Virus record (IMG/VR): IMGVR_UViG_3300017779_000074 | Length of the DNA: 31,921 nucleotides | Reading direction: 5' to 3' (one strand) | DNA from: a virus | Part shown: positions 8,868 through 21,309 of the stretch, piece after piece | Layout: each line of letters begins with the position of its first letter | How positions within the stretch are numbered: the stretch's first letter is position 1 | Notes under the pieces: generated by a model | What the model was told of the DNA's origin: nothing | The model's input: only the letters and a program-made list of their open reading frames with translations | Database searches by the model: none | Made by a program: the position numbers and the translations under genes

Positions 8868-9292
8868 GATACGCCAGCCACTATAAAGACGACCCTAACG
8901 AAGATAGAATAATCGCTCACGCCTGTAGGGCTTGGAAGTGCCAAGCAAAGAAAATCCCGCCGCATTACGTTCTAGACTTCGCTATGTTGCGTAAAGGTCA
9001 GATAGTCGGCTTTGTTGAGGTTAAGAAGCGACACTTCCACTACGATAAATTCCCGACAACAATCATTCCATTCAATAAGATAATAAAGGCTAAAGATATG
9101 CTCAGGTTCGGCTATCCGTCATTCTTTATGGTTGAGTGGAACGATAGAATAGGCTGGGTGAGCTTAGACAGTAAGCCCGACAAGATAACCGTGGAAGGCC
9201 GTACAGATCGAGGCAGACCCGATGACATACAGCCTATGGCGCATTACAGTATAGACCAGTTTACTTTTCTGAACTGCCAGCCAACTGATTAG
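8864..9292 (+). CDS. PD-(D/E)XK-type nuclease (142 aa), possible junction resolvase
   Basis: LDF...GQIVGFVEVKKR gives a D ... E-x-K motif with typical spacing. It is the last gene of a nin-like recombination block. Confidence 0.5.
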   Translation: MRYASHYKDDPNEDRIIAHACRAWKCQAKKIPPHYVLDFAMLRKGQIVGFVEVKKRHFHYDKFPTTIIPFNKIIKAKDMLRFGYPSFFMVEWNDRIGWVSLDSKPDKITVEGRTDRGRPDDIQPMAHYSIDQFTFLNCQPTD

Positions 9293-9683
9293 CAACATCA
9301 ATAGCTCGCTGACCTACTTGGTCGGCGTATCGGCTATTAAGTAACTCACTTCCCGCTAAATCGAATTCACCTTCCTCAATGTAAGCGATGGTCTTTTTAA
9401 ATTGCTTAAACTTCGACAACCCCATATTAAATACTAGGTTGATGATCGCCTCTTTACGCTCTGGCGACAATTCAGCAAACCACTCAAAGTTAGACCAGCA
9501 CTGCCCAGCTACGCGAGCTATATCATTCTCTAACAGGTAGGTGGCTTCCTCTTTTGATATACCGACATCATCAAGGTTGCGACCGACACCGATAGTCAGC
9601 TTATCAGCAGTACACTTATAAGGCTCTAACTTTAAACCTTCGTGAATTATTAGTTGTTTAGTTAGTCGTTCTTTATTAATCAA
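9261..9683 (-). CDS. Endolysin, T4-type lysozyme (GH24)
   Basis: IHEGLKLEPYKCTADKLTIGVGRNL matches the E-x8-(D/C)-x5-T catalytic pattern of T4/P21-type lysozymes. There is no N-terminal TM. The likely start is the TTG at 9683, 8 nt after GGGAG; the ORF-track start is the TTG at 9698. Confidence 0.85.
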   Translation of the reverse strand: MINKERLTKQLIIHEGLKLEPYKCTADKLTIGVGRNLDDVGISKEEATYLLENDIARVAGQCWSNFEWFAELSPERKEAIINLVFNMGLSKFKQFKKTIAYIEEGEFDLAGSELLNSRYADQVGQRAIDVANQLAGSSEK

Positions 9684-9687
9684 TGGA

Positions 9688-9721
9688 AAAGCTCCCAAAA
9701 TCTAATAGAAAAGCTCCCAAA
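9688..9721 (-). promoter_or_regulatory. Two tandem copies (22-bp spacing) of the conserved 12-mer TTTGGGAGCTTT between holin and endolysin
   Basis: aaagctcccaaa at 9688..9699 and 9710..9721. The proximal copy supplies the endolysin SD; the distal one has no ORF to serve. Confidence 0.6.
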
Positions 9722-9723
9722 AA

Positions 9724-10203
9724 TTAGGAATCTTCTTTTTTGTGACTTGCGCCAAAGTAAAATGAAGTAATTGCCGAAACAACACCGCCCATATAGCCTA
9801 AAACAAGGCTAACAATAGTATCGCTATTAGCGTCAGGAGGCTGAATAGTAACAAGAAAGATATAACCCACAAAACCAACAAGGGAAATAAGGGCAACAAT
9901 TCTAGGTGTCCAATCGCCTTTGTGGGCTTTTCTTGCGTCTTGTATATCTTTCGCTTCCAGTGCAAAGATGTCAACTTCCAACTCAGCCATTTTAGTTTCA
10001 AAATCAAGCTCCGCTTTTTTAACTTCGACAAGTTGCTCTGGTGACGCAGTTTGTAACGCCTTTTCAATACTTTTAGGGTCATTACTACAACCTAAAGCCT
10101 TAGCAATAGCAGATGCAGCAGCACCACCTAAAGGGCTACCTAGCGCAGTGCCAAGAACAGGCGCAACAGCACCAATAATTCCCTTAATTGCTCCAAAATT
10201 CAT
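9724..10203 (-). CDS. Putative holin (159 aa, three hydrophobic segments)
   Basis: A Gly/Ala-rich N-terminal hydrophobic segment, a central charged helix, and two C-terminal TM spans (IVALISLVGFVGYIFLVTI and IVSLVLGYMGGVVSAITSFYF). It lies immediately upstream of the endolysin. Confidence 0.55.
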   Translation of the reverse strand: MNFGAIKGIIGAVAPVLGTALGSPLGGAAASAIAKALGCSNDPKSIEKALQTASPEQLVEVKKAELDFETKMAELEVDIFALEAKDIQDARKAHKGDWTPRIVALISLVGFVGYIFLVTIQPPDANSDTIVSLVLGYMGGVVSAITSFYFGASHKKEDS

Positions 10204-10298
10204 TTCTTTTTAGCCTTCTTCATTGGTTTAGCTTTCTTTTTCTTTGGCGCTGGTGGGCGGCCAACCTTAGAACCGTATGTACCTTTACCTTGTGGCAT
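10200..10298 (-). CDS. Very basic 32-aa peptide with a GRP (AT-hook-like) core, not in the ORF track
   Basis: MPQGKGTYGSKVGRPPAPKKKKAKPMKKAKKK. TAATG couples it upstream, and its TGA overlaps the holin ATG. Confidence 0.45.
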   Translation of the reverse strand: MPQGKGTYGSKVGRPPAPKKKKAKPMKKAKKK

Positions 10299-10501
10299 TA
10301 CTCTATCTCCTCAATCTCAGTATTACTAATAATTAATGTTGTTTTAGCCCATTCCATAGCGCCTACAATCTCACCGTAGGTTAATAGTCCCTGCTCTGCG
10401 TATTCGTCAATCAACGCAATTATATCGTTATAGAAGTCATCTGTAGCTGCATTTCGGTAGCTATAGTTATTATGCTGTGTTAAATCTTTGACATCGGACA
10501 T
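10298..10501 (-). CDS. Hypothetical acidic protein (67 aa)
   Basis: TAATG coupling to the upstream gene. Acidic composition. Confidence 0.65.
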   Translation of the reverse strand: MSDVKDLTQHNNYSYRNAATDDFYNDIIALIDEYAEQGLLTYGEIVGAMEWAKTTLIISNTEIEEIE

Positions 10502-11655
10502 TATAACCTCTCAGTTGACCGCCTTACCTCACCCTTCTCTTTATCTAGGACAAGTAAGCACATTGATTGTCCACTTACATAGCCGCTAGAATCGTGCCAA
10601 GCATCAGATGGCGGTAGACCTGCAAAGCTCTCGGTTACTGTTTGCCCATAGGTTTCGCGGCTAATTTGCTTACTGTGTATGTGGCCGTGCCAACACATTC
10701 TATGCGTGCTTGCCCCCCACTCCTCTGGGTATCTGGCTGCAAAATACTCAGCCATTTTAGCGTGTTTAATAGTGTCACCGTGAGTAACCATAAAGGCTGT
10801 TTTGCCGTGTTGGTACACCCAGCATACAGCAGGTGACATTTCTATTGTAACTCTTTTATTGTTGCGCCAATAGGCTTGTTGTTGAGCCTTGAGAGCCATA
10901 GAGGTAATCGCATCGTGATTTCCGCGACAGTGACGCACTATAACCTTGTTAAAACGCTTTAGAGCCTCCTCTACGATAAAGGACATAACTTCAAGCCCTA
11001 TTAGGAAAACGTGCTCCAGGCGGCCATCAGTGTCCAGTGGAGTGCCTTTAGTGGTTGTTCCTGTGTAAGTATCGGCGTGGTAGTAATCGCCTAGCTGATT
11101 AATTACGATTGTGTCGCATTCGGGCGCATTGTTCATTAGACGCATAAATACTTCTTTGTGGCGGCTTGCAGCAATCTTACAGTCGTAATTATCACCAGAG
11201 ATGTCATCGTGAGCCAGCATACCAAAGTGAGCATCACCGATATTGACTACAGCAAGCTCTTGATCTTTTAGCTTTTTCTTTGGTTTAGGTATATTAGGTG
11301 ATTTGTTTTTGTGATCTTCTAGGAACTCATCGAGCGCGTTTTTAATGCTTTGTATCTGATCTTCTTGCTTTAAGTTGGTCTTGACCCACTGGGCTTTGAC
11401 CTGACCATCTTCTGAATAGAGTGTTGAAGTGCCTTTGACTAGGTGGGTAGATGGAGCAGTGTGAATCATATCGTGGTTAGGTGAGTAGCCTTGACCTGCT
11501 GCTCTCCTTACTACTATGCGCTTGTGGGATTGAACGGCAGACCTTGTAACACCTAGTATTGCTGCGCTCTTGTTCTCTGATACGCCTTCGAGATATAACT
11601 TTATTACTTCGCGCTGCTTGTCCGTAGTGCAGTAATCTAATAGCTTCTTTTCCAT
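10501..11655 (-). CDS. Fusion of a sigma70-region-4/LuxR-type HTH and a calcineurin-like metallophosphoesterase (384 aa)
   Basis: The N-terminus TDKQREVIKLYLEGVSENKSAAILGVTRSAVQSHKRIV is HTH-like. The phosphoesterase motifs occur in order: GDAHFG, LGDYYH, GNHD, THGD, HGHIH. RBS is GGGGGGAG. Confidence 0.75.
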   Translation of the reverse strand: MEKKLLDYCTTDKQREVIKLYLEGVSENKSAAILGVTRSAVQSHKRIVVRRAAGQGYSPNHDMIHTAPSTHLVKGTSTLYSEDGQVKAQWVKTNLKQEDQIQSIKNALDEFLEDHKNKSPNIPKPKKKLKDQELAVVNIGDAHFGMLAHDDISGDNYDCKIAASRHKEVFMRLMNNAPECDTIVINQLGDYYHADTYTGTTTKGTPLDTDGRLEHVFLIGLEVMSFIVEEALKRFNKVIVRHCRGNHDAITSMALKAQQQAYWRNNKRVTIEMSPAVCWVYQHGKTAFMVTHGDTIKHAKMAEYFAARYPEEWGASTHRMCWHGHIHSKQISRETYGQTVTESFAGLPPSDAWHDSSGYVSGQSMCLLVLDKEKGEVRRSTERL

Positions 11656-11682
11656 AACTCCCCCCTTGGGATTGCTTAAAGA

Positions 11683-11946
11683 TTATTTCTTTTTAGACTT
11701 CTTAGCTATATCTGCATCAGCCTTTCTAGCGCCACCCTTACCTGATACAAAACTATTAACTCTGCCCATAGCCCAAGCTGACATAGGTACATTGCGAGAG
11801 CCACCAGAAAGATATGCGCCTTGACCTCTACGATAAACCTTCTCTAGCTGGCTGGGGGTAAACTTTGAACCCTCTGCCTTTTTCTTTAGAGTTGCTTTAA
11901 CGCTTGCGCTTAGTGGTTTTCTTGGCGGTGCTTTTTTTGCTGCCAT
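11683..11946 (-). CDS. Lysine-rich basic protein (87 aa)
   Basis: ORF-track frame 11683..11970. I prefer the ATG at 11946 (MAAKKAPPRKPL...). The conserved-looking core is EKVYRRGQGAYLSGGSRNVPMSAWAMGRVNSFV. Confidence 0.6.
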   Translation of the reverse strand: MAAKKAPPRKPLSASVKATLKKKAEGSKFTPSQLEKVYRRGQGAYLSGGSRNVPMSAWAMGRVNSFVSGKGGARKADADIAKKSKKK

Positions 11947-12121
11947 CTTTTCCAGTCCTCGATTTCTCAACTGCTTTTAGGTCAATGTATTCACCAGCAG
12001 CATATTTTTTAGCAGTGCGTTTAATTTCTGCGGCCTTCTTGGCTTTATTCTTAGCACCTGACAGGTACTTTTTAGCAACGCCTGTTTTTTTATCTTTTGC
12101 TACTTTTCTGAATTTAGCCAT
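11897..12121 (-). CDS. Lysine-rich basic protein (74 aa)
   Basis: The ATG at 12121 overlaps the upstream TGA (TGATG). Sequence MAKFRKVAKDKKTGVAKKYLSGAKNKAKKAAEIKRTAKK.... Its 3' end overlaps the next gene by 50 nt. Confidence 0.55.
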   Translation of the reverse strand: MAKFRKVAKDKKTGVAKKYLSGAKNKAKKAAEIKRTAKKYAAGEYIDLKAVEKSRTGKDGSKKSTAKKTTKRKR

Positions 12122-12408
12122 CACCACTTTACCTTGTCAGCCCAGTAAGCTGCACTCATCTTACCCTTGGCTATATTCTTAGCGTGTCGGGCTTTGAATG
12201 AAGCTCGTTTAGCTTTCATCTTATCTGACTCACCCTTCTTAGGTGCGCCAGCAGTTTTAGCGCCTTGCTCACCGAATCTAATAAGTTTAGTCTCACTTCC
12301 TGTTTTAGCAAGTACAACGTGAGATTTAGTTGGGTGATTAGGAGTGCGCTTTGGTTTGTTGAAACCTTCTAAGCGATTCTTAGTCAATCTTGGGTCTTTA
12401 GTAGCCAT
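12121..12408 (-). CDS. Basic protein (95 aa)
   Basis: MATKDPRLTKNRLEGFNKPKRTPNHPTKSHVVLAK...SAAYWADKVKW. Lys/Arg-rich with no hydrophobic segment. Confidence 0.65.
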   Translation of the reverse strand: MATKDPRLTKNRLEGFNKPKRTPNHPTKSHVVLAKTGSETKLIRFGEQGAKTAGAPKKGESDKMKAKRASFKARHAKNIAKGKMSAAYWADKVKW

Positions 12409-12412
12409 AGTA

Positions 12413-12808
12413 TTAACCTAGCGGATTTTTACTGCTTCTTTCAATCTTATCAATAATCCTTTCAATTTTGCTTTCCATATCGCGTATTCGGCTTTTATTG
12501 ACGCGAACGCCGCTTTGAATTTCACTTGTATCTGTTTCTTTGATTCCACTAATCTTTGTTTCAACATTTTTAATGTTCCCCTCAATTGTCGCTATGGTTG
12601 CTTGGATATGCCCTATATCGCTATTAGACTGCGTTACCTCTAAGGTTGTCAAACGCTTCTCTAAACTGCGTATTTCTTCGACATTATAAATCTCAGCCAT
12701 CTTGCCTTCTAGGGCTTCTAGCTTAGTTTCCATTGTAACAAACGAGGCTATAACACCAGCGAAGGCAGTAGCTATTCCAATCCAAGTGCTTATTTGTTCT
12801 GCTTTCAT
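12413..12808 (-). CDS. N-terminally membrane-anchored coiled-coil protein (131 aa), i-spanin-like layout
   Basis: The TM span WIGIATAFAGVIASFV is followed by heptad-like repeats (LEALEGKM, LEKRLTTLE, IEGNIKNVETKI, MESKIERIIDKIE). Confidence 0.6.
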   Translation of the reverse strand: MKAEQISTWIGIATAFAGVIASFVTMETKLEALEGKMAEIYNVEEIRSLEKRLTTLEVTQSNSDIGHIQATIATIEGNIKNVETKISGIKETDTSEIQSGVRVNKSRIRDMESKIERIIDKIERSSKNPLG

Positions 12809-13593
12809 TACGGTAACATCTCTATATTGTGATCTGGGATAGGGTAGAACTCACCCTGCATATTTGTATTTACGAGCCAAAACTCATTCTCTACACCTAC
12901 GACTTCACCAGCCCAAGCTACGTTAAGCTGGTCTAAATACATCTGGTCTATTTGCACAGATGCGGAATCGTAGAATGCCTGAACAGTATCGGAAGCCTGT
13001 GTGACAAAGGTCGTTGATTCAATTATCGCCCCTGCATACTGTTCAAGCATATTTTTTGTACGACTAGCCACAACCATTCCTTCTATACTGGCTGCGTACT
13101 TGTCGCGCGTTTCTTGTTTTATTGATCTCAGGTCGTTATCTGTAGCATACTTTTCCATACCGATCTTAGTTGACTCATCGGCAACTTCTATCTCGGCAGC
13201 GATAGCGGTAACAGCAGCCATTTGCTCTGCTTCCTCTATCATTGCATCTTTTTGATTCTCGAACTCGACTTGCTGACCGATTATCTGATCTTGTATTAAC
13301 AGACCAGTAAGGTGCTCTTGAGTGGATTGTTGTAGGGCAAGATCATAGGCAGCATTAAAGGCATCAAGCTGCTGTTGAGTAACGTGGTATTCGACACCAG
13401 TGTCGGGGTCAACGATGACACTAGCACCAGTGACCATATTTTCAGCCATTTGCGAGATGAAATTGTTAGCTCCTTCACCGATGAGGGAGTTTATTACGGC
13501 TGTGTGATCTTGCAGCTCTGTCTGGCTTTTCGCGGTAAACGACAGGGCGATCAGGGACAGCATCAGGGCGATTTTTGTAGAAAGTGTACGCAT
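12808..13593 (-). CDS. Secreted (Sec signal peptide) helical protein (261 aa)
   Basis: MRTLSTKIALMLSLIALSFTAKSQ is a classical n-h-c signal peptide with no lipobox Cys. The start lies 119 nt inside the upstream gene, in another frame. Confidence 0.65.
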   Translation of the reverse strand: MRTLSTKIALMLSLIALSFTAKSQTELQDHTAVINSLIGEGANNFISQMAENMVTGASVIVDPDTGVEYHVTQQQLDAFNAAYDLALQQSTQEHLTGLLIQDQIIGQQVEFENQKDAMIEEAEQMAAVTAIAAEIEVADESTKIGMEKYATDNDLRSIKQETRDKYAASIEGMVVASRTKNMLEQYAGAIIESTTFVTQASDTVQAFYDSASVQIDQMYLDQLNVAWAGEVVGVENEFWLVNTNMQGEFYPIPDHNIEMLP

Positions 13594-14068
13594 CTTGACC
13601 TATTAGTCCTTGGTTTGTGGGGCAGGGTGTACCCGATTCATATAATGCCCACCATACTCGGTGATCTTGGCACATTATAGATACAGCCCCCACTTTCAAG
13701 CCTAATGCCTGTAGCTGCTTACTGAGCTTCAATAGCTCACAGTTATTATCGCGAATGGGGCTTCCAATCGCAAGCCCAAACATCTGAGTCTGTACGCCAG
13801 CACCACCAGAGAACACGCAAACGTCCTGATTGTACGCAGGTGAGCTAGGAGCTACGGCAGTATTAACTACAGCGCCTTCTTGAGTAACTGTCGTAGTCGT
13901 CCTGTTATCAATGCTCTCGGCACTTTGCTGGTTGTTAGAACCGAAGTCGCCAACTGTAGCTGCCTGTTCTTCTTGAGCGTTAGATAAGTTTGATAATAGC
14001 GATAACAAAAAGACTAGGTGCAAACGCGCAAGTAATGACCGTTTTATATAAGCCACCGATCTTGTCAT
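13475..14068 (-). CDS. Secreted Cys-containing protein (197 aa)
   Basis: I prefer the ATG at 14068: MTRSVAYIKRSLLARLHLVFLLSLLSNLSNA/QEE is signal-peptide-like. The mature part has four Cys. The ORF-track start is 14089. Confidence 0.55.
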   Translation of the reverse strand: MTRSVAYIKRSLLARLHLVFLLSLLSNLSNAQEEQAATVGDFGSNNQQSAESIDNRTTTTVTQEGAVVNTAVAPSSPAYNQDVCVFSGGAGVQTQMFGLAIGSPIRDNNCELLKLSKQLQALGLKVGAVSIMCQDHRVWWALYESGTPCPTNQGLIGQDAYTFYKNRPDAVPDRPVVYREKPDRAARSHSRNKLPHR

Positions 14069-14222
14069 CGAGTTTTTCCAATCTATCATCTAACTTCTCC
14101 AGCCTTCCTTTTCGTTCCTCAAGAGTTTTCTCGATATTCTCATATCGTACAGCACATACAGATTCGTGGCTCTCGATCTTACTGAGAGCCTTGTCGATTT
14201 TCTGTTCCATTGATAAGTCCAT
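13980..14222 (-). CDS. Tail-anchored coiled-coil membrane protein (80 aa)
   Basis: An N-terminal charged coiled coil (LEERKGRLEKLDDRLEKLDDKI) and a C-terminal TM (VITCAFAPSLFVIAIIKLI). The layout recalls XhlA-type lysis-associated proteins (memory only). Confidence 0.55.
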   Translation of the reverse strand: MDLSMEQKIDKALSKIESHESVCAVRYENIEKTLEERKGRLEKLDDRLEKLDDKIGGLYKTVITCAFAPSLFVIAIIKLI

Positions 14223-14779
14223 TATTTGATTATATCGCTATACACTTGTAAGCCGCGATCAAATCCTAGTGGTTGTGTTGCCTCTCTCACTATAGAGCCT
14301 TCCACTTCAGTGGCTGTATCAAATGCAGAATCATCTATAACAGTTATCTTAATCTCAGCCGTTGTTCCGTTTGTGTAGTGTGTTTTTAACTCTGCTCCAA
14401 CGTGCGAAGGTGCGTACGGGCTAATAGCTTCTGCGTAATAGGTAGCTGCAAATGGGTCGCCTTCTATATTGACAACACCGTCTGCACCTACGTTATATGG
14501 CGTAGCACCGTCTATTGAGACTTGGAAATAGTCAGCAGTTGCCAAGCTACCCTCGCTTCTATCTGTGAGCACAATGTAGCCCGCAGTATCAGTGTAAGAG
14601 CTAAAACCCCTAAACCATTTGGGTGGGTTTCCTGACACTAACATACCTAACTCTGGCACTTGTGTTGCTGTGCTAGGGTTGAAGTCATCAACAAGCATAG
14701 AGAATCCGTGGAGCAAACTAGCACCCTGCCAGTTGAACTCACCACACTTTACTCGTATTGTAAAAGTGTTATTACTCAT
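14222..14779 (-). CDS. Hypothetical late protein (185 aa), probably virion-associated
   Basis: Beta-rich composition. TAATG couples it to the next gene. Sits downstream of the fibre-like genes. Confidence 0.6.
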   Translation of the reverse strand: MSNNTFTIRVKCGEFNWQGASLLHGFSMLVDDFNPSTATQVPELGMLVSGNPPKWFRGFSSYTDTAGYIVLTDRSEGSLATADYFQVSIDGATPYNVGADGVVNIEGDPFAATYYAEAISPYAPSHVGAELKTHYTNGTTAEIKITVIDDSAFDTATEVEGSIVREATQPLGFDRGLQVYSDIIK

Positions 14780-14781
14780 AG

Positions 14782-15042
14782 CTAAGATGCTCTAGTTTCG
14801 CTAATCCAGACTTGGCTTGTGCCGATACTTGCTGTTTGATTTGAAGTTGAGCCGCTTACAACAAAGTAAGGAGTTAAAACTATTTCCTTAATAGAGTCTG
14901 CTGAAAATGTTTCAATTAAAGTCCAGTGGCTACCTTCGATACTGCCCCAAAGAGATACGTTAGTATCGCCCTTGTCAACCTGAAGTACGCCTGTATCACT
15001 GCTAAGTGGTTTAAAATTTGTTCCTGCTGCTAGTTTAGTCAT
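14782..15042 (-). CDS. Hypothetical late protein (86 aa)
   Basis: First ORF after the 64-nt gap at 15043..15106. RBS is ACAGGTGA. Confidence 0.6.
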   Translation of the reverse strand: MTKLAAGTNFKPLSSDTGVLQVDKGDTNVSLWGSIEGSHWTLIETFSADSIKEIVLTPYFVVSGSTSNQTASIGTSQVWISETRAS

Positions 15043-15106
15043 TTTGTTTCACCTGTTCGTTAATTTGTTAAATACTATAATCTGCTTGTTTATGAATTTT
15101 TAAAAG

Positions 15107-15706
15107 TTAAAAAGAATCTTTCAAAGCTCTTATATAATGATCTGTGCTAGTCTTTCTCCAAGCACCAAAAATGTTATGATCTGAAGGAATATAAACATCA
15201 CCGAATGGATTGTTTACATAAATAAATATATAACCATCGGCACTATTCCAAGTAGTACCTGTATTGCCATCAGATACTTTTATCGTAATTTTATCCCCGC
15301 CAGCGAAAGTATCTTGTCGCCAAGTCTCTTGTGTACCTGAGCTAGTCGCTGTGGTAGCAACTAAACTACCATTTTTGTAGTATTTGATTCTGGCGTGAGA
15401 GTTAGAATCCCCTACAGTGACTAAGTGTACAGTATACTGACCATCTCTAGCAGCATAAAAATAAGAGCTTTCAATATCATTTTCACCGTCAGAAGAAATT
15501 TTTGTAACTCTAGCGCCAAAAATTAGATTAGTCTTTGTGCTCGCTGTGGAAGTTGCATTAAAAAGACCTGCTGGCTTTATTTTAGGCGCGTCAGGCTCAC
15601 CCTCTCTTATGGCTTCTTGGTTTTCAACGAGCGTAGTTAATAGCTGTACGCTAATCGGTGCGCCAGCCGCTATAGATGTGTTTGGTATTTCTCTATAAGT
15701 TGCCAT
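15107..15706 (-). CDS. Fibre/receptor-binding-like paralog 3 (199 aa)
   Basis: It shares the N-terminal block MATYREIPNTSIAAGAPISVQLLTTLVENQEAIREG and the C-terminal NNPF block with the two upstream genes. Confidence 0.6.
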   Translation of the reverse strand: MATYREIPNTSIAAGAPISVQLLTTLVENQEAIREGEPDAPKIKPAGLFNATSTASTKTNLIFGARVTKISSDGENDIESSYFYAARDGQYTVHLVTVGDSNSHARIKYYKNGSLVATTATSSGTQETWRQDTFAGGDKITIKVSDGNTGTTWNSADGYIFIYVNNPFGDVYIPSDHNIFGAWRKTSTDHYIRALKDSF

Positions 15707-16297
15707 CTAAAAAATATCCACTGGCGTTAAGGTTGGCTTTGCTAGAACGAATGTTTCTTCTTCATTTATAAACCCATACATACAAGAGTAATCTGTGTGC
15801 GGGTTGCTTGTGTAAATCCAAGAGTTACAGTATACATAGCCTGAGCTGTCTGCTGCGTCTTTAGTTAGCTCTATTTCTATCAAATCTCTGCGGTTTAAAT
15901 TTATCAAAATATGCTCATCTAGTGCAGCTCCAGCAGCCGCAGTTAGCACATTAGATACAGCGCCATTGACTTTAGTGGTGATAGTCCCGCCAGCAGTGTC
16001 AGTTATTCTGTGGTGTATATTATAATTTCCACCCCTATTTACTCTAAATGGAATACCTAGTGCTGTAGAGTTACTCCCGCCAGCATTTAAACGTGTCGCC
16101 CTAAAAGCAAGTAATTTGTCTTTTTGCCCTAGTGTAGCAGTGGAATTCTCAAGCGCGAGATTTTCGTACTTATCATCGGCAGGTGAGTTGCCCTCTGCCG
16201 CTGCTATAGGGTTATCTCTCAACTTCTCGAATAACTGGCACGTTATAGGTTTACCGAAGCCTATCTCTGATGGTCTGATCTGTTTATAAGTCGTCAT
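15707..16297 (-). CDS. Fibre/receptor-binding-like paralog 2 (196 aa)
   Basis: MTTYKQIRPSEIGFGKPITCQLFEKLRDNPIAAAEG ... RGGNYNI ... YTSNPH. It abuts both neighbours with no gap. Confidence 0.6.
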   Translation of the reverse strand: MTTYKQIRPSEIGFGKPITCQLFEKLRDNPIAAAEGNSPADDKYENLALENSTATLGQKDKLLAFRATRLNAGGSNSTALGIPFRVNRGGNYNIHHRITDTAGGTITTKVNGAVSNVLTAAAGAALDEHILINLNRRDLIEIELTKDAADSSGYVYCNSWIYTSNPHTDYSCMYGFINEEETFVLAKPTLTPVDIF

Positions 16298-17023
16298 TTA
16301 AACTGCCGAAGTATGGTCAAAATTTAATGGAAAAGTTGGATAAGGAGCAAAATGAGCAGCCATTAACTCAAACTGAAGCGGGTATGCGTAGAGAGAATAC
16401 TGACCAACTCCTACATCTTCCCTGAAAGGGTTAGAAGAATATATCAAAACAGTTATACGGCTAAAGCCCCAAGTTGAGTTTGTTGTGCTACCGAACATTT
16501 GTATTTTTAATACATCGCCAGCAGTGAAGGTTTGGTTATGTACTGTAATAGTTTCCCCATCTGCGCCTGATGTCTGGGCGGTAGTATGAACAACGCTATC
16601 ATCTATAAGGATTTTTGTTCCTATTTGCTCTTGAATAAATTGGTTTTTTTGAAGTATAACGAAAGTATACTCCCCACCTCTTGACATCGTAAAAGCTGCT
16701 GACGTTATATCAGCGTCCATTTTGCCCTTGCCAGCAGTGTTAAATGTTCCGTTATCTATCATAACTGAATGAACGAGATACTCATTGAATGGAGCGAGTA
16801 TAGTATAAGTCTCAAATTCTGGTAAATCCCCTATCGAGTCATCGCCTAACGCTTCTGGTGCGCCATCTACAGTTGAGCTGGCTAGAGCTGCGAACTGTAT
16901 GCTTGGTGCAGCACCCAACCCTTCAACAATTGCCTCTCCGTTATCTCTAATAGCAGTGATAATGCTAGAAGTTAAAGGTGCATCTAGCCCTATGTCTGCA
17001 TCTTGTATAACCGTGTAACCCAT
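16298..17023 (-). CDS. Fibre/receptor-binding-like paralog 1 (241 aa)
   Basis: MGYTVIQDADIGLDAPLTSSIITAIRDNGEAIVEG ... RGGEYTF ... YSSNPF. It follows the large tail-tip gene directly. Confidence 0.6.
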   Translation of the reverse strand: MGYTVIQDADIGLDAPLTSSIITAIRDNGEAIVEGLGAAPSIQFAALASSTVDGAPEALGDDSIGDLPEFETYTILAPFNEYLVHSVMIDNGTFNTAGKGKMDADITSAAFTMSRGGEYTFVILQKNQFIQEQIGTKILIDDSVVHTTAQTSGADGETITVHNQTFTAGDVLKIQMFGSTTNSTWGFSRITVLIYSSNPFREDVGVGQYSLYAYPLQFELMAAHFAPYPTFPLNFDHTSAV

Positions 17024-20000
17024 TTATGCCACCGTATATGGTTCTTGACCGCCAGACATTCTAGCGCGTTTTGTTATTTTAATACTTAAACCAGTCCCAC
17101 TGCTACCTGTACCAGTTAAAGTTTCTTCCGCTCCATAGCCATCGTGAACGGCTGATGGAAGTGCTCCTGATGCTGCATTTGAGCTAATTGAATTTATTGC
17201 GGTAATTGCGCCGTTAGTCTGCGTGTAAGTTACAGCTAGGTTTCTAGTATTAGCCGCCATACCAGTATACTCAGACTCATCAGGCGTAAACTCTATAGTC
17301 TCTCCGTTGCCAAAATCCTGACCGCCATTTAAAATCTGTACAGTTAAATGGTTTTCATCAGATAAGTAAATACCTACAGCTCGATCCCCAGTGTAAGGGT
17401 TAGTTGAAGTACCATCGCCACCGCTACCTGCGTCATCGAAGGCATCAGTATTGCCGTCACCAACTGAGCCAGTATTTATAGTGCCAAAATTAAATTGCTT
17501 TGCTTTTATAATGTACGATTGTGTTTTTCTATCCAGCTTTACTGACAAACACTGCATTTCTGAGGTAGATGGGCGACCATCAAAGTCTACAATATGTTTT
17601 GTATTTAAAAAGAAATGGTCGCCAGTTTTTACATTAGCATTAGACGCATCTACTTTGAATGTTAGAGTTTTTGGTGTGGTTTTGAACCTTCCTAAAACCC
17701 TTTGTGCAACGCTACTGGCAGTTGATGTATCATTAATCCCATAAGCGAATAAAGTTTTAATACCTGCTACACCATACTCGCTCGCAGTTTCACCATCTGA
17801 GTCAGCAGCGATGAATAAGTTTCTAAAGTTTTTCGGGCTATCCCTAGACTCTGTATGATTTTTCATATTGTAATAATAATAAACTCTTGAAATTCTTTCT
17901 TTTTCTGAGTTTATAAATTTAACGCTATCTTCAACAATAACATCGTCAGTGATAGTTTTTAATGAGCTAGCGTCCAGCTCAGGCGTTTCAGCCTTCATAA
18001 TAATTTTTGCTGCTAACTCATCATAAAAGAAATTAACACCGACCATACTGCCTAGCTGTGATAGCTGTTTATTCACCTCTTTAGGCTCACTAAAGATTGC
18101 GTCTATTCTATAAGAAGAAAGCCAAGCGGTTTTTTCGTCTGCCCAAGAGTACAGTCTATTAGGTATATTAGTGATTGCTTCTGCTGGAACTCCAGCCTGA
18201 TTAACCAGTAGATCATAAGCAACATCATTAATAGTTTGATTTGTACCACCGCCATCGTACTGCCCATAGAAAACACACTTTTGTACGGTATCTCCAGACT
18301 TGTGAGCATCTTGTATAGTCCCCCATTCGGCACGACCACTACTCTCTAAGTCCATATTTGCGTCACCCGCTGCGCGAGTGTATGCGATTATTTCCTTATT
18401 AATTCTTATAAAGCCGCTTGTACCATATTCGGCTTGTATTTGTACCGCTGTTGCATCAGCACCATCAATAGTTAAGACTACATTGTGTGCAGTGCCTGTA
18501 TTAAGATCGGCTTTTAAAGAAAATTCTGAAGGTACTGGTACTTTAGCTTTTAGCTCGTCAGCTAGAGTCATCGGGTCTTTACACTTGATAGTCAGCACAT
18601 CTTTATCTAGCTGAAAGCTATCTATAACATAATCTTTTCTGCCGTCTGCTACCTGAGCTACATTAGTGTTATCTATGTAGCCATCGTATACCCTAATTTT
18701 TCTACCAACATAAAAAGCATTTCTCTGTACTAGCTTTTGTAGGTAGCTGCCGTTTTCCAATGCAATTAAATTTCTAGTCTCAAAGTAAGGGTCAACGTCA
18801 GCGCCAGTCGTGTAAAAATCCCTCAACTTAATTGTTACGTTAGCTCTTAGAGATACGCCTTGAGTCGGTACAATCTCTACAGGTGCGCTAGTTACGGAAA
18901 TAAGTGCGGGATATGCGTTTTTAAACTGTCTAGCAGAATTAAATGAGCCGCCTTCTTCGCTGCCAAACCTGTAGGCTAATTTGCCGTTAGTGCTTAACCT
19001 GTAATTGGAAATATCCTGACAAGTTGTTTTAGTGTTGTAGCACTCGTTACCCGCACCAGCATTAGCTGTGCAAGTGCTAGGTGCTGTACTGTTGCCATAT
19101 TCGTTATCGCAGAAGTCCAAAAACATCTCAACAAGCTGCACTGGTTTTCGTGGCGATAATCTATGTGCGCCATTAAAGAACAAAGAGCTATCTTGCTCTG
19201 GTGGTAAAGGCGGTGCATTAGGGTCTGCTTCTGGGTCTTCTGGTGCTGGGTTTTCTGGTGTTGTAGGCTGCACTGGTGGCGTGTCAGGGTCAGCAGGCTG
19301 CTCAGGTGTCGTTTCAGTAATTGGTGCTGCATTTGTAAGTGTTGGCGGCTGCCCTTTATAAATATGGTCAGCAGGTAGAACATCTAAGCTATACTTATGC
19401 TCTAGGTAGCCGTACATCTTAGCTCTTTCAGTGCTATCTAAAATCCTATCGAATATAAGATATTCGTAGACCGTACCCTTACGAGACTTGTTCGCCGCGA
19501 AAGTCTCATCGCACATAATGGACGGCTCTATAACGCTAGGGAAGTCGCAAGTAGGCAGGTCAGAGGTTAAAGTGCCAGCATTCAGTTGGAATTTACCTAG
19601 TACAGTCTCACTAAGCTGTATCATATAAATTCTATCAAAGCCCTCGAAAGAACCAATATTAGTGAAGTTAAATGCCTGTCCGTTATCTTTCCTTTTGTAG
19701 CTGACAGTTTCGGTGTAAGACTGAGCATTAGAGTTGTCTACCGCTATCTCAATCTTCTCGCTTGCATCATTAAACGATAATGTAAAAAATGGGTCTGTAT
19801 TTGTATCAGCCCTTAAATTACAGGCGATAAAAAAAGTAAAGTTTGTTGAGGGTAATATATCTCCACCTACTCTGTAGTGGTCTGAGCGCCCTGCCTCTGA
19901 GTTAAATAAAAATCCGCCGCGATACGCTACCTCTGTAACTGTAAATACGGCATTAGTTCCACCGCTATTCTGGTCGCTTGTTTCTACTAATGTATCACCT

Positions 20001-20404
20001 ACCTCATAACCTTGTGAGCCACCTATACTTGCGACACTTACTACTGCTCCGCCGAGTATAGATAAGTTAAGTAAAACTTTAGACCTGTCTGTCCTTCCTG
20101 TAGTATCGTGAACTTCAAAATCTGTTATAACGCCATTATCAGCGCCACCTACAGAATATCCTGTACCAGCGGTTGTTATAGATAGCTTTACAATACTACC
20201 TGACGCTAAGTATTTAGGTAAGGTTGCGTTACCTTTTGCCCCACTCAGCGTAGATTCCGCATTATTCCCCTTGCCTTTATTCCGCCAATAAGTAGCACCG
20301 AAACGGCTCGGCAGGGAAGCCCTGTCATTGCCGTTAGGGTCTTGACCATCGAGCCAAGTGTAAAGGCTGCTTGATAAATGCTCAGGCGTGAAAGGAGTGG
20401 TCAT
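17024..20404 (-). CDS. Large tail-tip / host-specificity protein (1126 aa)
   Basis: It is the largest ORF and sits after the tape measure and a 302-aa tail protein. The N-terminal ~350 aa end in a LamG-like signature (YEYLIFDRILDSTERAKMYGYLEHKYSL). A Pro-rich linker follows (PEQPADPDTPPVQPTTPENPAPEDPEADPNAPPLPPEQ), then a Cys motif (ECYNTKTTCQDISNY). Confidence 0.7.
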   Translation of the reverse strand: MTTPFTPEHLSSSLYTWLDGQDPNGNDRASLPSRFGATYWRNKGKGNNAESTLSGAKGNATLPKYLASGSIVKLSITTAGTGYSVGGADNGVITDFEVHDTTGRTDRSKVLLNLSILGGAVVSVASIGGSQGYEVGDTLVETSDQNSGGTNAVFTVTEVAYRGGFLFNSEAGRSDHYRVGGDILPSTNFTFFIACNLRADTNTDPFFTLSFNDASEKIEIAVDNSNAQSYTETVSYKRKDNGQAFNFTNIGSFEGFDRIYMIQLSETVLGKFQLNAGTLTSDLPTCDFPSVIEPSIMCDETFAANKSRKGTVYEYLIFDRILDSTERAKMYGYLEHKYSLDVLPADHIYKGQPPTLTNAAPITETTPEQPADPDTPPVQPTTPENPAPEDPEADPNAPPLPPEQDSSLFFNGAHRLSPRKPVQLVEMFLDFCDNEYGNSTAPSTCTANAGAGNECYNTKTTCQDISNYRLSTNGKLAYRFGSEEGGSFNSARQFKNAYPALISVTSAPVEIVPTQGVSLRANVTIKLRDFYTTGADVDPYFETRNLIALENGSYLQKLVQRNAFYVGRKIRVYDGYIDNTNVAQVADGRKDYVIDSFQLDKDVLTIKCKDPMTLADELKAKVPVPSEFSLKADLNTGTAHNVVLTIDGADATAVQIQAEYGTSGFIRINKEIIAYTRAAGDANMDLESSGRAEWGTIQDAHKSGDTVQKCVFYGQYDGGGTNQTINDVAYDLLVNQAGVPAEAITNIPNRLYSWADEKTAWLSSYRIDAIFSEPKEVNKQLSQLGSMVGVNFFYDELAAKIIMKAETPELDASSLKTITDDVIVEDSVKFINSEKERISRVYYYYNMKNHTESRDSPKNFRNLFIAADSDGETASEYGVAGIKTLFAYGINDTSTASSVAQRVLGRFKTTPKTLTFKVDASNANVKTGDHFFLNTKHIVDFDGRPSTSEMQCLSVKLDRKTQSYIIKAKQFNFGTINTGSVGDGNTDAFDDAGSGGDGTSTNPYTGDRAVGIYLSDENHLTVQILNGGQDFGNGETIEFTPDESEYTGMAANTRNLAVTYTQTNGAITAINSISSNAASGALPSAVHDGYGAEETLTGTGSSGTGLSIKITKRARMSGGQEPYTVA

Positions 20405-21309
20405 TCGATATAACCTATAGCGTTAATTGACCAGTTTAATAAGGTTGGCGAGCTGTAACTAGGCTGCTTCAAACTGCCATCTATAGTGCAGAAATATAAC
20501 TTCTGCTGTTCTGATATCTTATTATCGTTAGAGCCAGCCGCGTCCTTATTATACATAAAGAAAAATGGGTAGTGTGATAAAAAGTAACCAGCATAATCTA
20601 TAAATGGATAGGTCTTTAAATGACCGTTGATCTTTGTATACTGGGCTGAATCAGTAGTTGTATATAGATCAGCCTCACTGAAATGCTGTAAGTTAATGCT
20701 TATTTTTTGCGGCACTTTTTTTACATCACTACTTAAATAATTAGCATTGTTGTTTCTTTTGATTGACGCTTTATAAGGTGTAAAGCTAGGCGGTATAAAA
20801 GGCGCAGAGATTTCAACGTGGTCAGTAAGCCAGTGACCCATTGATAAAATAGAAATATAGCTATCAGCGCCCCAACCTACAGTTTCTATCGTTAATCTTC
20901 GTACAGATACAGAGGCATCAAAAACAGCACCAAAAGGTGAGTATAAATTATCTTCTGGCTTGTAAGTGTTGCTAGTGTAGGGAGCGCCCTTAAAATCAGT
21001 ATCAATGTTACCAGAAGTATCGGTATCGTATAAAATCTTAATACCTTGGTTTCGGGTCAGATTATGACCATAAATAGCAAAGCCATTCACAGTTGTAGCA
21101 ACAGGAAAAGTAATTGTAATGAATGCTTTTTTAAGGCTTGAGTCGACTCTAAACGAAGTAGCACCACTATCATCTATACAATTAACAAACGGATAACCTT
21201 CGGCAGAACCGTAGGTAGCATTCTCTGTAGATACAACAGTAGTTTGACCTGACTTCCTGCGCCAGTATTCGTGGTGCAGTTTGTTTTCCAGTAAAAGTGC
21301 TCCAGACAT
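20401..21309 (-). CDS. Minor tail protein in the distal-tail-protein position (302 aa)
   Basis: It follows the tape measure directly, with ATGA-type overlaps at both ends. The call rests on position only. Confidence 0.45.
   Translation of the reverse strand: MSGALLLENKLHHEYWRRKSGQTTVVSTENATYGSAEGYPFVNCIDDSGATSFRVDSSLKKAFITITFPVATTVNGFAIYGHNLTRNQGIKILYDTDTSGNIDTDFKGAPYTSNTYKPEDNLYSPFGAVFDASVSVRRLTIETVGWGADSYISILSMGHWLTDHVEISAPFIPPSFTPYKASIKRNNNANYLSSDVKKVPQKISINLQHFSEADLYTTTDSAQYTKINGHLKTYPFIDYAGYFLSHYPFFFMYNKDAAGSNDNKISEQQKLYFCTIDGSLKQPSYSSPTLLNWSINAIGYIE

What the first reader, a model, noticed from the sequence alone, without database searches (positions are those of the whole stretch)
12413..14222. 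Four-gene envelope-targeted cluster with long out-of-frame overlaps just downstream of the fibre genes (after two small ORFs): candidate novel lysis or superinfection-exclusion complex
Seen in sequence, four consecutive late genes all carry membrane or export signals:
- 13980..14222: a tail-anchored coiled coil (C-terminal TM VITCAFAPSLFVIAIIKLI).
- 13475..14068: a Sec signal (MTRSVAYIKRSLLARLHLVFLLSLLSNLSNA/QEE) with a 4-Cys mature domain.
- 12808..13593: a Sec signal (MRTLSTKIALMLSLIALSFTAKSQ) with a helical mature domain.
- 12413..12808: an N-terminal TM followed by about 100 aa of coiled coil.

The second gene starts 89 nt inside the first, so one DNA stretch encodes a TM helix in one frame and a signal peptide in another. 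The third starts 119 nt inside the second.

Established knowledge: phages of Gram-negative hosts need an outer-membrane disruption function. Spanin genes typically overlap or nest and pair an N-anchored periplasmic coiled coil with a second envelope protein. Separately, Cor/Llp-type receptor-blocking exclusion proteins are typically encoded right next to receptor-binding genes.

Inference: no lipobox lipoprotein (o-spanin) or unimolecular spanin is visible anywhere, and nothing follows the endolysin. This cluster may therefore be a non-canonical periplasm-spanning lysis or exclusion machine. I could not match any of the four proteins to a family.
Basis: partly seen in the sequence, partly recalled or inferred. 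Interest (0 to 1): 0.65.

Follow-up and report, generated by a model that had tools for sequence, protein, structure and literature searches.

The report
Lipoprotein-free envelope module beside phage lysis genes
Four overlapping late genes for membrane and periplasmic proteins form a widespread, unnamed module that in related marine phages sits right beside the cell-bursting genes. It may be how phages without the usual outer-membrane-breaking proteins (spanins) open the host's outer membrane.

Summary
Four minus-strand genes carry the stated membrane or export signals: g1 13980-14222, g2 13475-14089 (or start 14068), g3 12808-13593, g4 12413-12808. The out-of-frame overlaps are 89/110 nt (g1/g2), 119 nt (g2/g3) and 1 nt (g3/g4).

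Substitution patterns in 24 relatives show that both frames of the g2/g3 overlap are under purifying selection. None of the four proteins reaches the threshold of any Pfam, NCBIfam or PADLOC family.

The module is not peculiar to this phage:
- g2 is a signal-peptide protein with four invariant Cys. Its family has 2,595 50%-identity clusters.
- A g4-type protein nearly always follows g2 within about 3.5 kb. It has an N-terminal TM, a coiled coil and an invariant C-terminal (N/S)PL.
- Cultured SAR11 and Roseobacter phages carry both.

In all 31 close relatives with enough flank, an endolysin lies within 2.8 kb of the module. It is often 7-175 nt after g4, behind a putative holin, and its type swaps between lysozyme and M15 peptidase. 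The fibre genes upstream are not conserved.

No lipobox ORF exists in the window, in a complete 41-kb relative, or in 50 kb of HTVC115P.

Best reading (about 0.45): a lipoprotein-free, multi-component spanin analogue. Function is inferred from gene neighbourhood only.

The parts
13980..14222 (-). g1: 80-aa tail-anchored inner-membrane protein. It has a cytoplasmic coiled-coil N-domain with a conserved HE..C..RY motif and a C-terminal TM.
   Evidence: ORF. Single hydrophobic segment at 62-80. Homologues of 58-80 aa sit in the same position in close and distant modules. The g1 frame is under selection within the overlap. No family match.
13475..14089 (-). g2: secreted periplasmic protein of 204 aa (197 aa if it starts at 14068). 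It has an SPase-I type signal peptide, a T/S/N-rich linker, a helical domain with 4 invariant Cys and a GTPCP motif, and a basic Pro-rich tail.
   Evidence: Family alignment A1 gives invariant C84, C110, C133, C149 and a universal signal peptide. PHROG 20531, E 9.5e-16. 2,595 50%-identity clusters. In the AlphaFold2 model only residues 103-170 are confident. No PDB match by sequence or fold.
12808..13593 (-). g3: secreted, acidic, mostly helical protein of 261 aa with a signal peptide. Its first 39 codons overlap the g2 tail in another frame. It is the variable subunit of the module.
   Evidence: Only close homologues exist, at 54% identity or more, all unnamed. In distant modules the same slot holds unrelated signal-peptide proteins of 263-530 aa that overlap g2. 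Dual-coding test. Low-confidence AlphaFold2 model.
12413..12808 (-). g4: 131-aa membrane protein with an N-terminal TM (6-24), about 100 aa of coiled coil, and an invariant extreme C-terminal (N/S)PL(G) motif. Its start overlaps the g3 stop by 1 nt.
   Evidence: Family alignment A4 shows G18, P129 and L130 invariant. A g4-type gene lies 1-3.5 kb downstream of g2 homologues in nearly all distant loci with enough flank and in five cultured phages. DUF2730 scores 22.9 bits against a threshold of 24.9.
13475..13593 (-). 119-nt dual-coding stretch. One frame encodes the g2 C-terminal tail and the other encodes the g3 signal peptide plus 15 mature residues.
   Evidence: Both frames are open in all 34 modules. 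The selection signature is balanced between the two frames.
13980..14089 (-). 89-110-nt dual-coding stretch. One frame encodes the g1 C-terminal TM helix and the other encodes the g2 signal peptide.
9724..10203 (-). Putative holin of 159 aa (PHROG 1544) with three hydrophobic segments. In relatives it usually follows g4 directly and always precedes or overlaps the endolysin.
   Evidence: There is no Pfam match, so calling it a holin is an inference from position and topology.
9261..9698 (-). Endolysin: a soluble T4-type lysozyme of 145 aa with no SAR or signal domain. It is the last gene of the late operon.
   Evidence: PF00959, 49.2 bits against a threshold of 22.3. PHROG 7, 1e-18. Sequence.
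12121..12408 (-). d95: small, very basic, highly conserved protein (PHROG 7595). It often lies next to the module. It is probably not part of the complex.
   Evidence: It follows g4 in CRP-810 and lies two genes after it in CRP-207, and a distantly similar small basic protein (gp23) precedes g2 in HTVC202P.

Best explanation
g2, g3 and g4, with g1 as an accessory, are late-expressed lysis proteins. They form an envelope complex that does the job spanins do in other phages of Gram-negative hosts: breaking the outer membrane after the holin and endolysin have acted.

Shown here:
- All four genes are real and translationally linked.
- g2 and g3 carry conserved SPase-I type signal peptides, so they are exported.
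- g4 and g1 each have one TM.
- g2 and g4 are co-inherited across very divergent phages.
- The module is tied to endolysin and holin genes in the window's clade.
- Canonical lipoprotein spanins are absent.

Inferred:
- g4 is anchored N-in/C-out in the inner membrane. Its coiled coil of about 105 residues would be about 15 nm as one helix and reaches into the periplasm.
- The invariant C-terminal NPL motif of g4 docks the secreted subunits.
- g3 extends the bridge. It is acidic and helical, with predicted helices of 46 and 51 residues.
- g2 contacts the outer membrane or its proteins. Its domain probably holds two disulfides, and a few family members, including a paralogue in phage CRP-810, carry a lipobox instead of an ordinary signal peptide.
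- The peptidoglycan mesh holds the complex inactive until the endolysin removes it. The complex then destabilises or fuses the membranes.
- g1 is a membrane-tethered cytoplasmic coiled coil. It most likely acts at the inner-membrane step, in the way the accessory lysis proteins Mu gp25 and LambdaSo Lcc6 do.
- The out-of-frame overlaps enforce co-translation and fixed stoichiometry, as in Rz/Rz1.
For: Gene reality and coupling.

Conserved signal peptides across the g2 family and in every g3 or g3-analogue.

Linkage to lysis genes:
- 31 of 31 close modules have an endolysin within 2.8 kb.
- 29 also have the PHROG 1544 membrane protein. The gap from g4 to that gene is 7 nt in five modules and 175 nt in six.
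- The endolysin type swaps between PF00959 lysozyme and Peptidase_M15_3.
- In L066 the M15 endolysin stop overlaps the g2 start.
- A freshwater podovirus, MW202481, has the order g1, g2, g3', g4, SprT-like, holin-like, lysozyme.
- L107 has a lysozyme about 0.5 kb upstream of g2.

Position in SAR11 podoviruses HTVC202P and Baldr: the module sits immediately upstream of the large terminase gene. From my own knowledge, T7 spanin genes 18.5/18.7 occupy the same position.

No lipobox ORF in the window (nearly a whole 32-kb contig), in complete MW202481 (41 kb) or in 50 kb of HTVC115P. The Mu o-spanin is detected by the same scan.

The fibre genes are not co-conserved with the module.

g4 architecture and the invariant C-terminal motif. 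Long Lys-rich N-tails in distant g4 members, and a net charge of -1 (N flank) against -32 (C flank), favour N-in/C-out.

A CRP-810 lipoprotein shares the g2 Cys motif (hhalign probability 80%).

Kongari et al. 2018 (PMC6139136) report that about 13% of Gram-negative phages have no detectable spanin. They explicitly allow that non-lipoprotein outer partners could exist.
Against: - There is no experimental or homology link to any characterised lysis protein.
- In the window itself, five genes (2.2 kb) separate g4 from the holin.
- In HTVC115P and in pelagimyophage-like contigs the module is far from any recognisable endolysin.
- The close relatives are phylogenetically related, so 31 of 31 is not 31 independent events.
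- g4 topology is ambiguous by K+R counts alone for the window protein.
- g4 resembles Mu gp25 releasin weakly (DUF2730 22.9 bits; hhalign probability 69%). That protein is predicted to have a cytoplasmic C-domain.
- g2 and g3 show no outer-membrane anchor or beta-barrel signature.
- CRP-810 has a small TM protein and a lipoprotein immediately upstream of its module. These could themselves be a spanin pair.
- The structure models are poor.
Confidence: 0.45

Rival explanations
1. The module is a lysis accessory or regulator, not an outer-membrane disruptor. It would act at the inner-membrane or peptidoglycan step. Examples: controlling holin triggering (antiholin or lysis-inhibition sensor, like T4 RI/RIII), or helping endolysin release (like Mu gp25 releasin or LambdaSo Lcc6). 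In this reading g2 and g3 are periplasmic sensors or inhibitors, and g1 and g4 are membrane-tethered partners.
For: It rests on the same lysis-gene linkage. g4 scores just below the DUF2730 threshold, several relatives carry precomputed PF10805 hits, and hhalign to Mu gp25 gives 69% probability. g1 is a membrane-tethered cytoplasmic coiled coil, the same general design as releasin and Lcc6.
Against: The window endolysin and the M15 endolysins are soluble, with no SAR domain to release. The module occurs with different holins or with no recognisable neighbouring holin, which argues against a holin-specific regulator. Mu gp25 lacks the NPL motif and has an RR junction that predicts the opposite topology. 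This reading also leaves the outer-membrane step of these lipoprotein-free genomes unexplained.
Confidence: 0.2
2. The module is a superinfection-exclusion or envelope-remodelling complex. The periplasmic and inner-membrane proteins would block receptors, DNA entry or tail lysozymes of incoming phages (Cor/Llp, Imm/Sp, Sie-like), or stop progeny being trapped on debris.
For: All four proteins target the envelope. The cluster follows receptor-binding or fibre genes in the window, L022, CRP-810 and L088.
Against: g2-g4 are conserved at 73-83% identity next to unrelated fibre genes, so they do not co-vary with receptor specificity. There is no lipoprotein. The genes sit in the late operon, with no independent promoter signal above chance and no intervening terminator on the coding strand, whereas exclusion genes are usually early or lysogenic. 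PADLOC gives no defence-family match beyond coiled-coil noise. Foldseek against PDB gave no match at E<=0.001; from my own knowledge the T4 spackle structures are in PDB.
Confidence: 0.12
3. The module has some other periplasmic function unrelated to lysis or exclusion, and its place next to lysis genes only reflects its position at the end of the late operon. Examples: manipulating host envelope physiology late in infection, or a membrane-associated assembly aid.
For: In HTVC115P and large pelagimyophage-like contigs the module stands among structural or unrelated genes, far from lysozymes. No family or fold match constrains the function.
Against: The linkage to endolysins survives several independent rearrangements: insertions of exo384 and d95, an endolysin-type swap, and an endolysin moved upstream of g2. 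Lysis genes are also scattered in T4-like phages (my own knowledge), so dispersal in large phages says little.
Confidence: 0.15

Closest known systems
Two-component spanins (lambda Rz/Rz1, T7 gp18.5/18.7, Mu gp23/gp23.1)
   Same: - Late genes beside or near the holin and endolysin.
- One subunit (g4) has an N-terminal TM plus a coiled coil of about 100 aa, with a conserved C-terminal end suited to docking a partner.
- The partner genes overlap out of frame.
- In SAR11 podoviruses the module sits just upstream of the large terminase gene, the T7 position.
- Genomes with the module lack other spanin candidates.
   Different: - The partners are two Sec/SPase-I secreted proteins of 170-240 mature residues, not one short Pro-rich lipoprotein.
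- There are three or four components, not two.
- g4 has no Cys for the intermolecular disulfides typical of Rz.
- There is no sequence similarity (hhalign to Mu gp23: 2.6% probability).
- g4 topology is not established.
Unimolecular spanin (T1 gp11)
   Same: It is an alternative, non-Rz solution to the outer-membrane step. About 12% of g2-family members have a hydrophobic extreme C-terminus, and a few have an N-terminal lipobox. That combination is reminiscent of the lipobox plus C-terminal TMD layout.
   Different: The window's g2 has neither a lipobox nor a C-terminal TM. The hydrophobic tails may be a by-product of the overlap with the next gene's signal peptide.
Mu gp25 releasin (DUF2730, PF10805)
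   Same: A small protein with an N-terminal TM followed by a helical domain, encoded in a lysis region. There is weak sequence similarity to g4 (22.9 bits; hhalign 69%).
   Different: - g4 scores below Pfam's threshold.
- gp25 has an RR junction and a predicted cytoplasmic C-domain.
- gp25 has no NPL C-terminus.
- gp25 acts on SAR endolysins, whereas the endolysins here are soluble.
- DUF2730 is reported only in transposable phages (PMC9239132).
LambdaSo Lcc6 (Shewanella prophage accessory lysis protein)
   Same: It sets a precedent that small single-TM proteins with a cytoplasmic domain can be essential extra lysis factors. g1 has the same general design.
   Different: Lcc6 is anchored at its N-terminus and encoded away from the lysis cassette. 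g1 is anchored at its C-terminus. No similarity was tested or expected.
phiKT gp28 'disruptin' (cationic peptide for outer-membrane disruption)
   Same: It is the other known answer to how spanin-less phages breach the outer membrane.
   Different: gp28 is a single small cationic amphipathic peptide. g1-g4 are not. The three small, very basic proteins just downstream (11683-12408) have that composition, but at least d95 looks like a conserved nucleic-acid-associated protein, and they were not tested.
Cor / Llp receptor-blocking exclusion lipoproteins
   Same: Envelope-targeted proteins, encoded next to receptor-binding genes in the window.
   Different: The proteins here are not lipoproteins, do not co-vary with the fibres, are expressed late, and number four rather than one.

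Membership tests
Two-component spanin | The i-spanin is a type II (N-in/C-out) inner-membrane protein with a periplasmic coiled-coil domain. | tested here: inconclusive
   The TM at 6-24 and the coiled-coil-like remainder are present. Topology was judged from sequence only. The window protein is ambiguous. Family-wide net charge (N flank -1 against C flank -32) and Lys-rich N-tails of 30-40 aa in distant members favour N-in/C-out. No fusion data exist.
Two-component spanin | The o-spanin is an outer-membrane lipoprotein with a lipobox and a lipoylated Cys. | tested here: not met
   g2 and g3 have SPase-I type cleavage sites (SNA/Q, AKS/Q) with no Cys near the site. No lipobox ORF exists in any frame of the window, and the scanner detects the Mu o-spanin.
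Two-component spanin | The subunit genes are adjacent, in embedded, overlapped or separated architecture. | tested here: met
   g2/g3 overlap by 119 nt out of frame and g3/g4 overlap by 1 nt. This is conserved in 34 modules, and both frames are under selection.
Two-component spanin | Encoded within or next to the holin-endolysin cassette. | tested here: met
   The distance is 2.2 kb in the window. In relatives it is 7-434 nt in 16 modules, and an endolysin lies within 2.8 kb in 31 of 31. This does not hold in HTVC115P or in the large myophage-like contigs.
Two-component spanin | Required for outer-membrane disruption (spherical-cell arrest when absent; complements lambda Rz/Rz1 amber mutants). 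| not testable with these tools
   This needs genetics and microscopy.
Unimolecular spanin (T1 gp11 type) | One protein carries both an N-terminal lipobox and a C-terminal TMD. | tested here: not met
   No protein in the window has this combination.
DUF2730 / releasin (Mu gp25) | Scores at or above the Pfam PF10805 gathering threshold. | tested here: not met
   g4 scores 22.9 bits against a cut-off of 24.9. Some relatives carry precomputed PF10805 hits. hhalign of the g4 family against gp25 gives 68.6% probability.
DUF2730 / releasin (Mu gp25) | N-out/C-in topology with a basic junction, and pairing with a SAR endolysin. | tested here: not met
   g4 has no RR/RK junction. The endolysin at 9261-9698 and the M15 endolysins have no N-terminal hydrophobic domain.
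Cor/Llp-type exclusion proteins | A small outer-membrane lipoprotein specific for the phage's own receptor, so that it co-varies with the receptor-binding protein. | tested here: not met
   There is no lipobox. The module is conserved next to unrelated fibre genes.
Disruptin (phiKT gp28) | A single small cationic amphipathic peptide. | tested here: not met
   g1-g4 are 80-261 aa. g3 is strongly acidic, and g1 and g4 are near neutral.
PHROG 20531 / unnamed g2 family | Signal peptide plus a 4-Cys domain with the motifs AxAPS...D.C...GVQTQ...C.R.K...G.KVAAVS..C.D...GTPCP. | tested here: met
   PHROG 20531 at E 9.5e-16. All invariant residues are present. The family has no known function.

The most novel reading that the evidence does not exclude
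g2, g3 and g4 define a third class of outer-membrane-disrupting lysis machinery. It would be a lipoprotein-free, multi-subunit periplasm-spanning complex built from an inner-membrane coiled-coil protein with a C-terminal NPL docking motif and two Sec-secreted partners. It would be the missing 'spanin' of many spanin-less phages, including abundant SAR11 (Pelagibacter) and Roseobacter phages. g1 would be a new tail-anchored accessory lysis factor.
Probability: 0.4. Interest if true: 0.85.

Novelty: new variant of a known kind. Interest (0 to 1): 0.65.

Why it matters
[quoted passage not shown] Only one alternative, the phiKT cationic peptide, has been described.

This module is large in distribution: the g2 family has 2,595 50%-identity clusters. 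It is present in cultured phages of SAR11 and Roseobacter, among the most abundant marine bacteria, whose lysis genes are largely unannotated.

If the module performs the outer-membrane step, several things follow:
- It fills a gap in the three-step lysis model.
- It gives annotators two sequence markers: the 4-Cys GTPCP domain, and the TM plus coiled coil plus C-terminal NPL protein.
- It would show that membrane bridging does not need a lipid-anchored outer subunit.

The locus is also a clean natural example of two successive dual-coding overlaps, TM helix over signal peptide and basic tail over signal peptide, with measurable selection in both frames. Current gene callers handle these badly. 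Many database entries start g3 at an internal Met, one GenBank record omits g2 altogether, and two records label g4 homologues 'lysozyme'.

Tried and rejected
1. Family and fold searches. Pfam, PHROGs, NCBIfam and PADLOC scans of all four proteins and of distant homologues gave only coiled-coil noise, the PHROG 20531 match for g2 and the sub-threshold DUF2730 match for g4. A PDB sequence-profile search with the g2 family gave nothing. Foldseek of the g2 model against PDB gave nothing, and against BFVD gave only uncharacterised viral proteins. The g3 AlphaFold2 model was too poor (pLDDT 52) to search with.

2. An embedded o-spanin. ORF60 (13296-13478) is an alternative-frame ORF inside g3. It starts at the g2 stop, is Pro-rich, and carries a lipobox-like LLSC in the L022 clade. 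I rejected it because stop codons interrupt it in 11 of 34 modules and the lipobox is absent in most, including the window.

3. hol159 as a lipoprotein. It has AKALGC at residues 34-39. I rejected this because the n- and h-regions are atypical and the Cys is missing in the wider family.

4. Domain fusions. Longer g2-family proteins gave no informative fusions.

5. Host assignment through a GTDB genome scan. Only MAG contigs of mixed taxonomy were found, probably mis-binned phage DNA.

6. DNA-level relatives among cultured phages. There are none for the module. Only the small basic gene d95 matches. tblastn with g3 or g4 finds nothing in cultured phages, and HTVC115P gp49 finds only itself. The g4 homologues there were found by architecture and the C-terminal motif.

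7. Promoter and terminator scan of 9000-15200. The counts were no better than shuffled sequence, and no terminator-like site lay on the coding strand between g1 and the holin gene.

8. Literature searches found no description of this module.


Full report
**1. What is in the window**

The window is nearly a whole marine siphovirus-like genome. It is 98-100% identical at the protein level to IMG/VR contig UViG_3300046167_000434, which is 32,222 bp.

The minus strand carries one long late operon. In order it encodes:
- terminase, portal and capsid;
- tape measure (21309-23615);
- tail tip and fibres (14222-20404);
- the four genes of the finding;
- three small, very basic proteins;
- an HTH-metallophosphoesterase 'exonuclease' (10501-11655) and a 67-aa protein;
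- a membrane protein with three hydrophobic segments (9724-10203, PHROG 1544);
- a soluble T4-type lysozyme (9261-9698, PF00959).

No terminator-like site lies on the coding strand between g1 and the holin gene; the only coding-strand hit sits inside that gene. Promoter-like hits are at the level of shuffled sequence.

**2. Checking the observation**

- g1 (80 aa) has a single hydrophobic segment, at its extreme C-terminus.
- g2 has a classic n-h-c signal peptide ending SNA/QEE and four Cys.
- g3 has a signal peptide ending AKS/QTE and a very acidic mature part.
- g4 has a TM at residues 6-24 followed by heptad-rich sequence.
- The g2 start is ambiguous. The g1/g2 overlap is therefore 110 or 89 nt.

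The overlaps are not chance ORFs.
- I collected 34-37 distinct related modules from IMG/VR. In all of them both frames are open, and the signal-peptide and TM character is kept even though the sequences vary.
- I then classified nucleotide differences by whether they are synonymous in each frame.
- In the g2/g3 overlap, differences synonymous only in g2 and only in g3 are both enriched (1.57x and 1.54x). Doubly non-synonymous ones are depleted (0.52x).
- The flanking single-gene stretches show 3.3x and 3.95x enrichment for their own frame only.
- In the g1/g2 overlap the g1 frame is constrained (1.94x). The g2 signal-peptide frame is only loosely constrained (0.94-1.38x), which fits the known sequence tolerance of signal peptides.
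- In a distant relative the two genes do not overlap at all, yet each keeps its feature.

**3. The module is widespread and has a conserved core**

None of the four proteins passes a Pfam, NCBIfam or PADLOC threshold.

g2:
- It matches PHROG 20531, of unknown function.
- Homologues go down to 35% identity.
- All have a signal peptide, a T/S/N-rich linker and a domain with four invariant Cys and a GTPCP motif.
- A profile search of 1.84 billion cluster representatives finds 2,595 clusters at E<=1e-3 and 1,198 at E<=1e-10.
- AlphaFold2 gives a confident small helical domain only for residues 103-170.
- That domain has no match in PDB and matches only uncharacterised proteins in BFVD.

g3:
- It has only close relatives.
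- In distant modules the same slot, overlapping the 3' end of g2, holds unrelated signal-peptide proteins of 263-530 aa.

g4:
- It belongs to a recognisable family with an N-terminal TM containing an invariant Gly, a coiled coil of variable length, and an invariant (N/S)PL within the last 2-6 residues.
- A g4-type gene lies 1-3.5 kb downstream of the g2 homologue in nearly every distant locus with enough flank.
- Cultured phages carry it too: Roseobacter CRP-810 (gp51) and CRP-207 (gp73), and Pelagibacter HTVC115P (gp49), HTVC202P (gp26) and Baldr (004).

g1:
- g1-type proteins are tail-anchored and carry the HE..C..RY motif. They precede g2 in many lineages but not all.

**4. Genomic association**

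The upstream fibre genes are not conserved between phages whose g2-g4 are 73-83% identical.

What is conserved is the lysis cassette.
- Among 31 distinct close modules with at least 2.5 kb downstream, 29 have the PHROG 1544 membrane protein followed by an endolysin.
- One more has a lysozyme 491 nt downstream.
- One (L024/L066) has an M15 endolysin whose stop overlaps the g2 start.
- The gap from g4 to the membrane protein is 7 nt in five modules and 175 nt in six.
- The window's 2.2-kb gap comes from inserted genes (d95, d76, d95b, exo384, d67) that are absent from those relatives.
- The endolysin is either a PF00959 lysozyme or a Peptidase_M15_3. The linkage has therefore survived non-orthologous replacement.

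More distant examples:
- A freshwater podovirus, MW202481, has the order g1, g2, g3', g4, SprT-like, holin-like, lysozyme.
- In HTVC202P and Baldr the module lies immediately upstream of the large terminase gene. From my own knowledge, T7 keeps its spanin genes there.
- Counter-examples exist. In HTVC115P and in pelagimyophage-like contigs the module is far from recognisable lysozymes.

**5. Absence of canonical spanins**

I ran a lipobox scan over every start codon in all six frames.
- It finds nothing credible in the window, in the complete 41-kb MW202481 genome, or in 50 kb of HTVC115P.
- It recovers the Mu o-spanin as a positive control.
- An alternative-frame ORF inside g3 looked like an embedded Rz1 analogue, but stop codons break it in 11 of 34 modules.
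- CRP-810 is the exception. Directly upstream of its g2 it encodes an unannotated 86-aa lipoprotein whose mature part shares the g2 Cys motif (hhalign probability 80%). A small TM plus coiled-coil protein precedes it.
- A few g2-family members have lipobox-like signals (9 of 252). About 12% (31 of 252) end in a hydrophobic stretch.

**6. Interpretation**

The most economical reading is that g2-g3-g4 is the outer-membrane component of the lysis system in phages without Rz/Rz1-type spanins. g4 would play the i-spanin role. The secreted g3 and g2 would together replace the lipoprotein partner. g1 would be an inner-membrane accessory.

Kongari et al. (PMC6139136) found no spanin in about 13% of such phages. 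They noted that other topologies or anchors might serve.

Every functional step is an inference from architecture and neighbourhood.

The weakest link is g4 topology.
- By K+R counts alone the window protein is ambiguous.
- The family-wide net-charge difference and the Lys-rich N-tails of 30-40 aa in distant members favour N-in/C-out.
- However, g4 also shows borderline similarity to the Mu releasin family DUF2730. The C-domain of that protein is predicted to be cytoplasmic (PMC9239132).
- Against membership: the score is below threshold, there is no RR junction, Mu gp25 lacks the NPL tail, and the endolysins here are soluble, not SAR-type.

**7. Rivals**

- A regulator or accessory role at the holin or endolysin step explains the same linkage. 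It does not explain the periplasmic subunits or the missing outer-membrane function.
- Receptor-blocking or other exclusion is disfavoured by the lack of co-variation with fibres, the lack of lipoproteins and the late-operon position.
- An unrelated periplasmic function cannot be excluded.
- Precedents for unexpected extra lysis proteins are Mu gp25 and LambdaSo Lcc6.

**8. Verdict**

The module consists of uncharacterised families, is broadly distributed in ecologically important phages, and offers a concrete, testable candidate for how spanin-less phages breach the outer membrane.

Noticed in passing
window 12121-12408 (-): d95 is a 95-aa very basic protein (25 K+R, PHROG 7595). It is conserved even at the DNA level (69-90% identity) in Roseobacter, Lentibacter and Celeribacter phages, SIO1 and cyanophages S-CBS2 and KBS-S-2A. 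It ends in ...SAAYWADKVKW. It lies next to the module in CRP-810, CRP-207 (gp71) and many metagenomic relatives; HTVC202P gp23, which precedes g2 there, is a distantly similar small basic protein. Its function is unknown. It also gives a weak match to part of a 'minor head protein and DNA pilot' PHROG.
   Followed up: partly
window 11683-12127 (-): Two more small, highly basic proteins: d76 (28 K+R in 76 aa, PHROG 38321) and d95b (DUF5824, 30.3 bits against a threshold of 25; PHROG 28338). Their genes overlap each other by 74 nt. Their composition resembles cationic peptides such as the phiKT disruptin. This was not tested.
   Followed up: no
window 10501-11655 (-): A 384-aa protein (PHROG 704, 'DNA repair exonuclease') with a metallophosphoesterase core and an N-terminal sigma-70 region-4-like HTH. 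It sits in the late operon between the envelope module and the holin. It is present or absent among close relatives, so it behaves as an insertion.
   Followed up: partly
window 13296-13478 (-): A 60-aa alternative-frame ORF embedded in g3, starting at the g2 stop. It is Pro-rich and has a lipobox-like LLSC in the L022 clade. It resembles an embedded o-spanin but is interrupted by stop codons in 11 of 34 related modules, so it is probably not a gene.
   Followed up: yes
window 9724-10203 (-): The putative holin (PHROG 1544) has a Gly/Ala-rich N-terminal hydrophobic segment that ends in a lipobox-like AKALGC (SVLGC or GVLGC in relatives). A coiled-coil linker and two strong TMs follow. It has no Pfam match. 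The Cys is absent in the distant homologue of MW202481.
   Followed up: partly
L042, L044, L076 (g1 homologues, about 60-180 nt upstream of g2): Some g1 homologues carry an N-terminal AT-hook-like KRGRPKNP stretch on the cytoplasmic side. This hints at DNA or nucleoid contact for this membrane-tethered protein.
   Followed up: no
L091 5315-5737 (CRP-810 gp51); L125 3292-3873 (CRP-207 gp73): Both are annotated 'lysozyme' or 'putative lysozyme' in GenBank. They are g4 homologues (TM, coiled coil, C-terminal NPL). Pfam, run on CRP-810 gp51 only, finds no lysozyme domain. These are likely misannotations.
   Followed up: yes
L092 3920-4426 (MW202481.1 about 35490-35996): The g2 homologue is not annotated in this GenBank record. 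Two tiny opposite-strand ORFs are annotated instead. The Cys/Pro-rich g3 analogue is labelled 'transport protein tonB'. In many database entries g3 is called from an internal Met (206-215 aa), which avoids the overlap.
   Followed up: yes
L086 8149-8418; L125 3870-4226 (CRP-207 gp72): Small proteins with an N-terminal EF-hand-like DxDGDG loop and two TMs occur inside or next to distant versions of the module. They are possible holins.
   Followed up: no
L086 6573-8165; L092 4299-5405: In distant modules the g3 slot holds large secreted proteins with repeated C..NPL...CPGY Cys motifs or long Pro/Glu/Lys-rich linkers. The middle subunit is therefore hypervariable while g2 and g4 are conserved.
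   Followed up: partly
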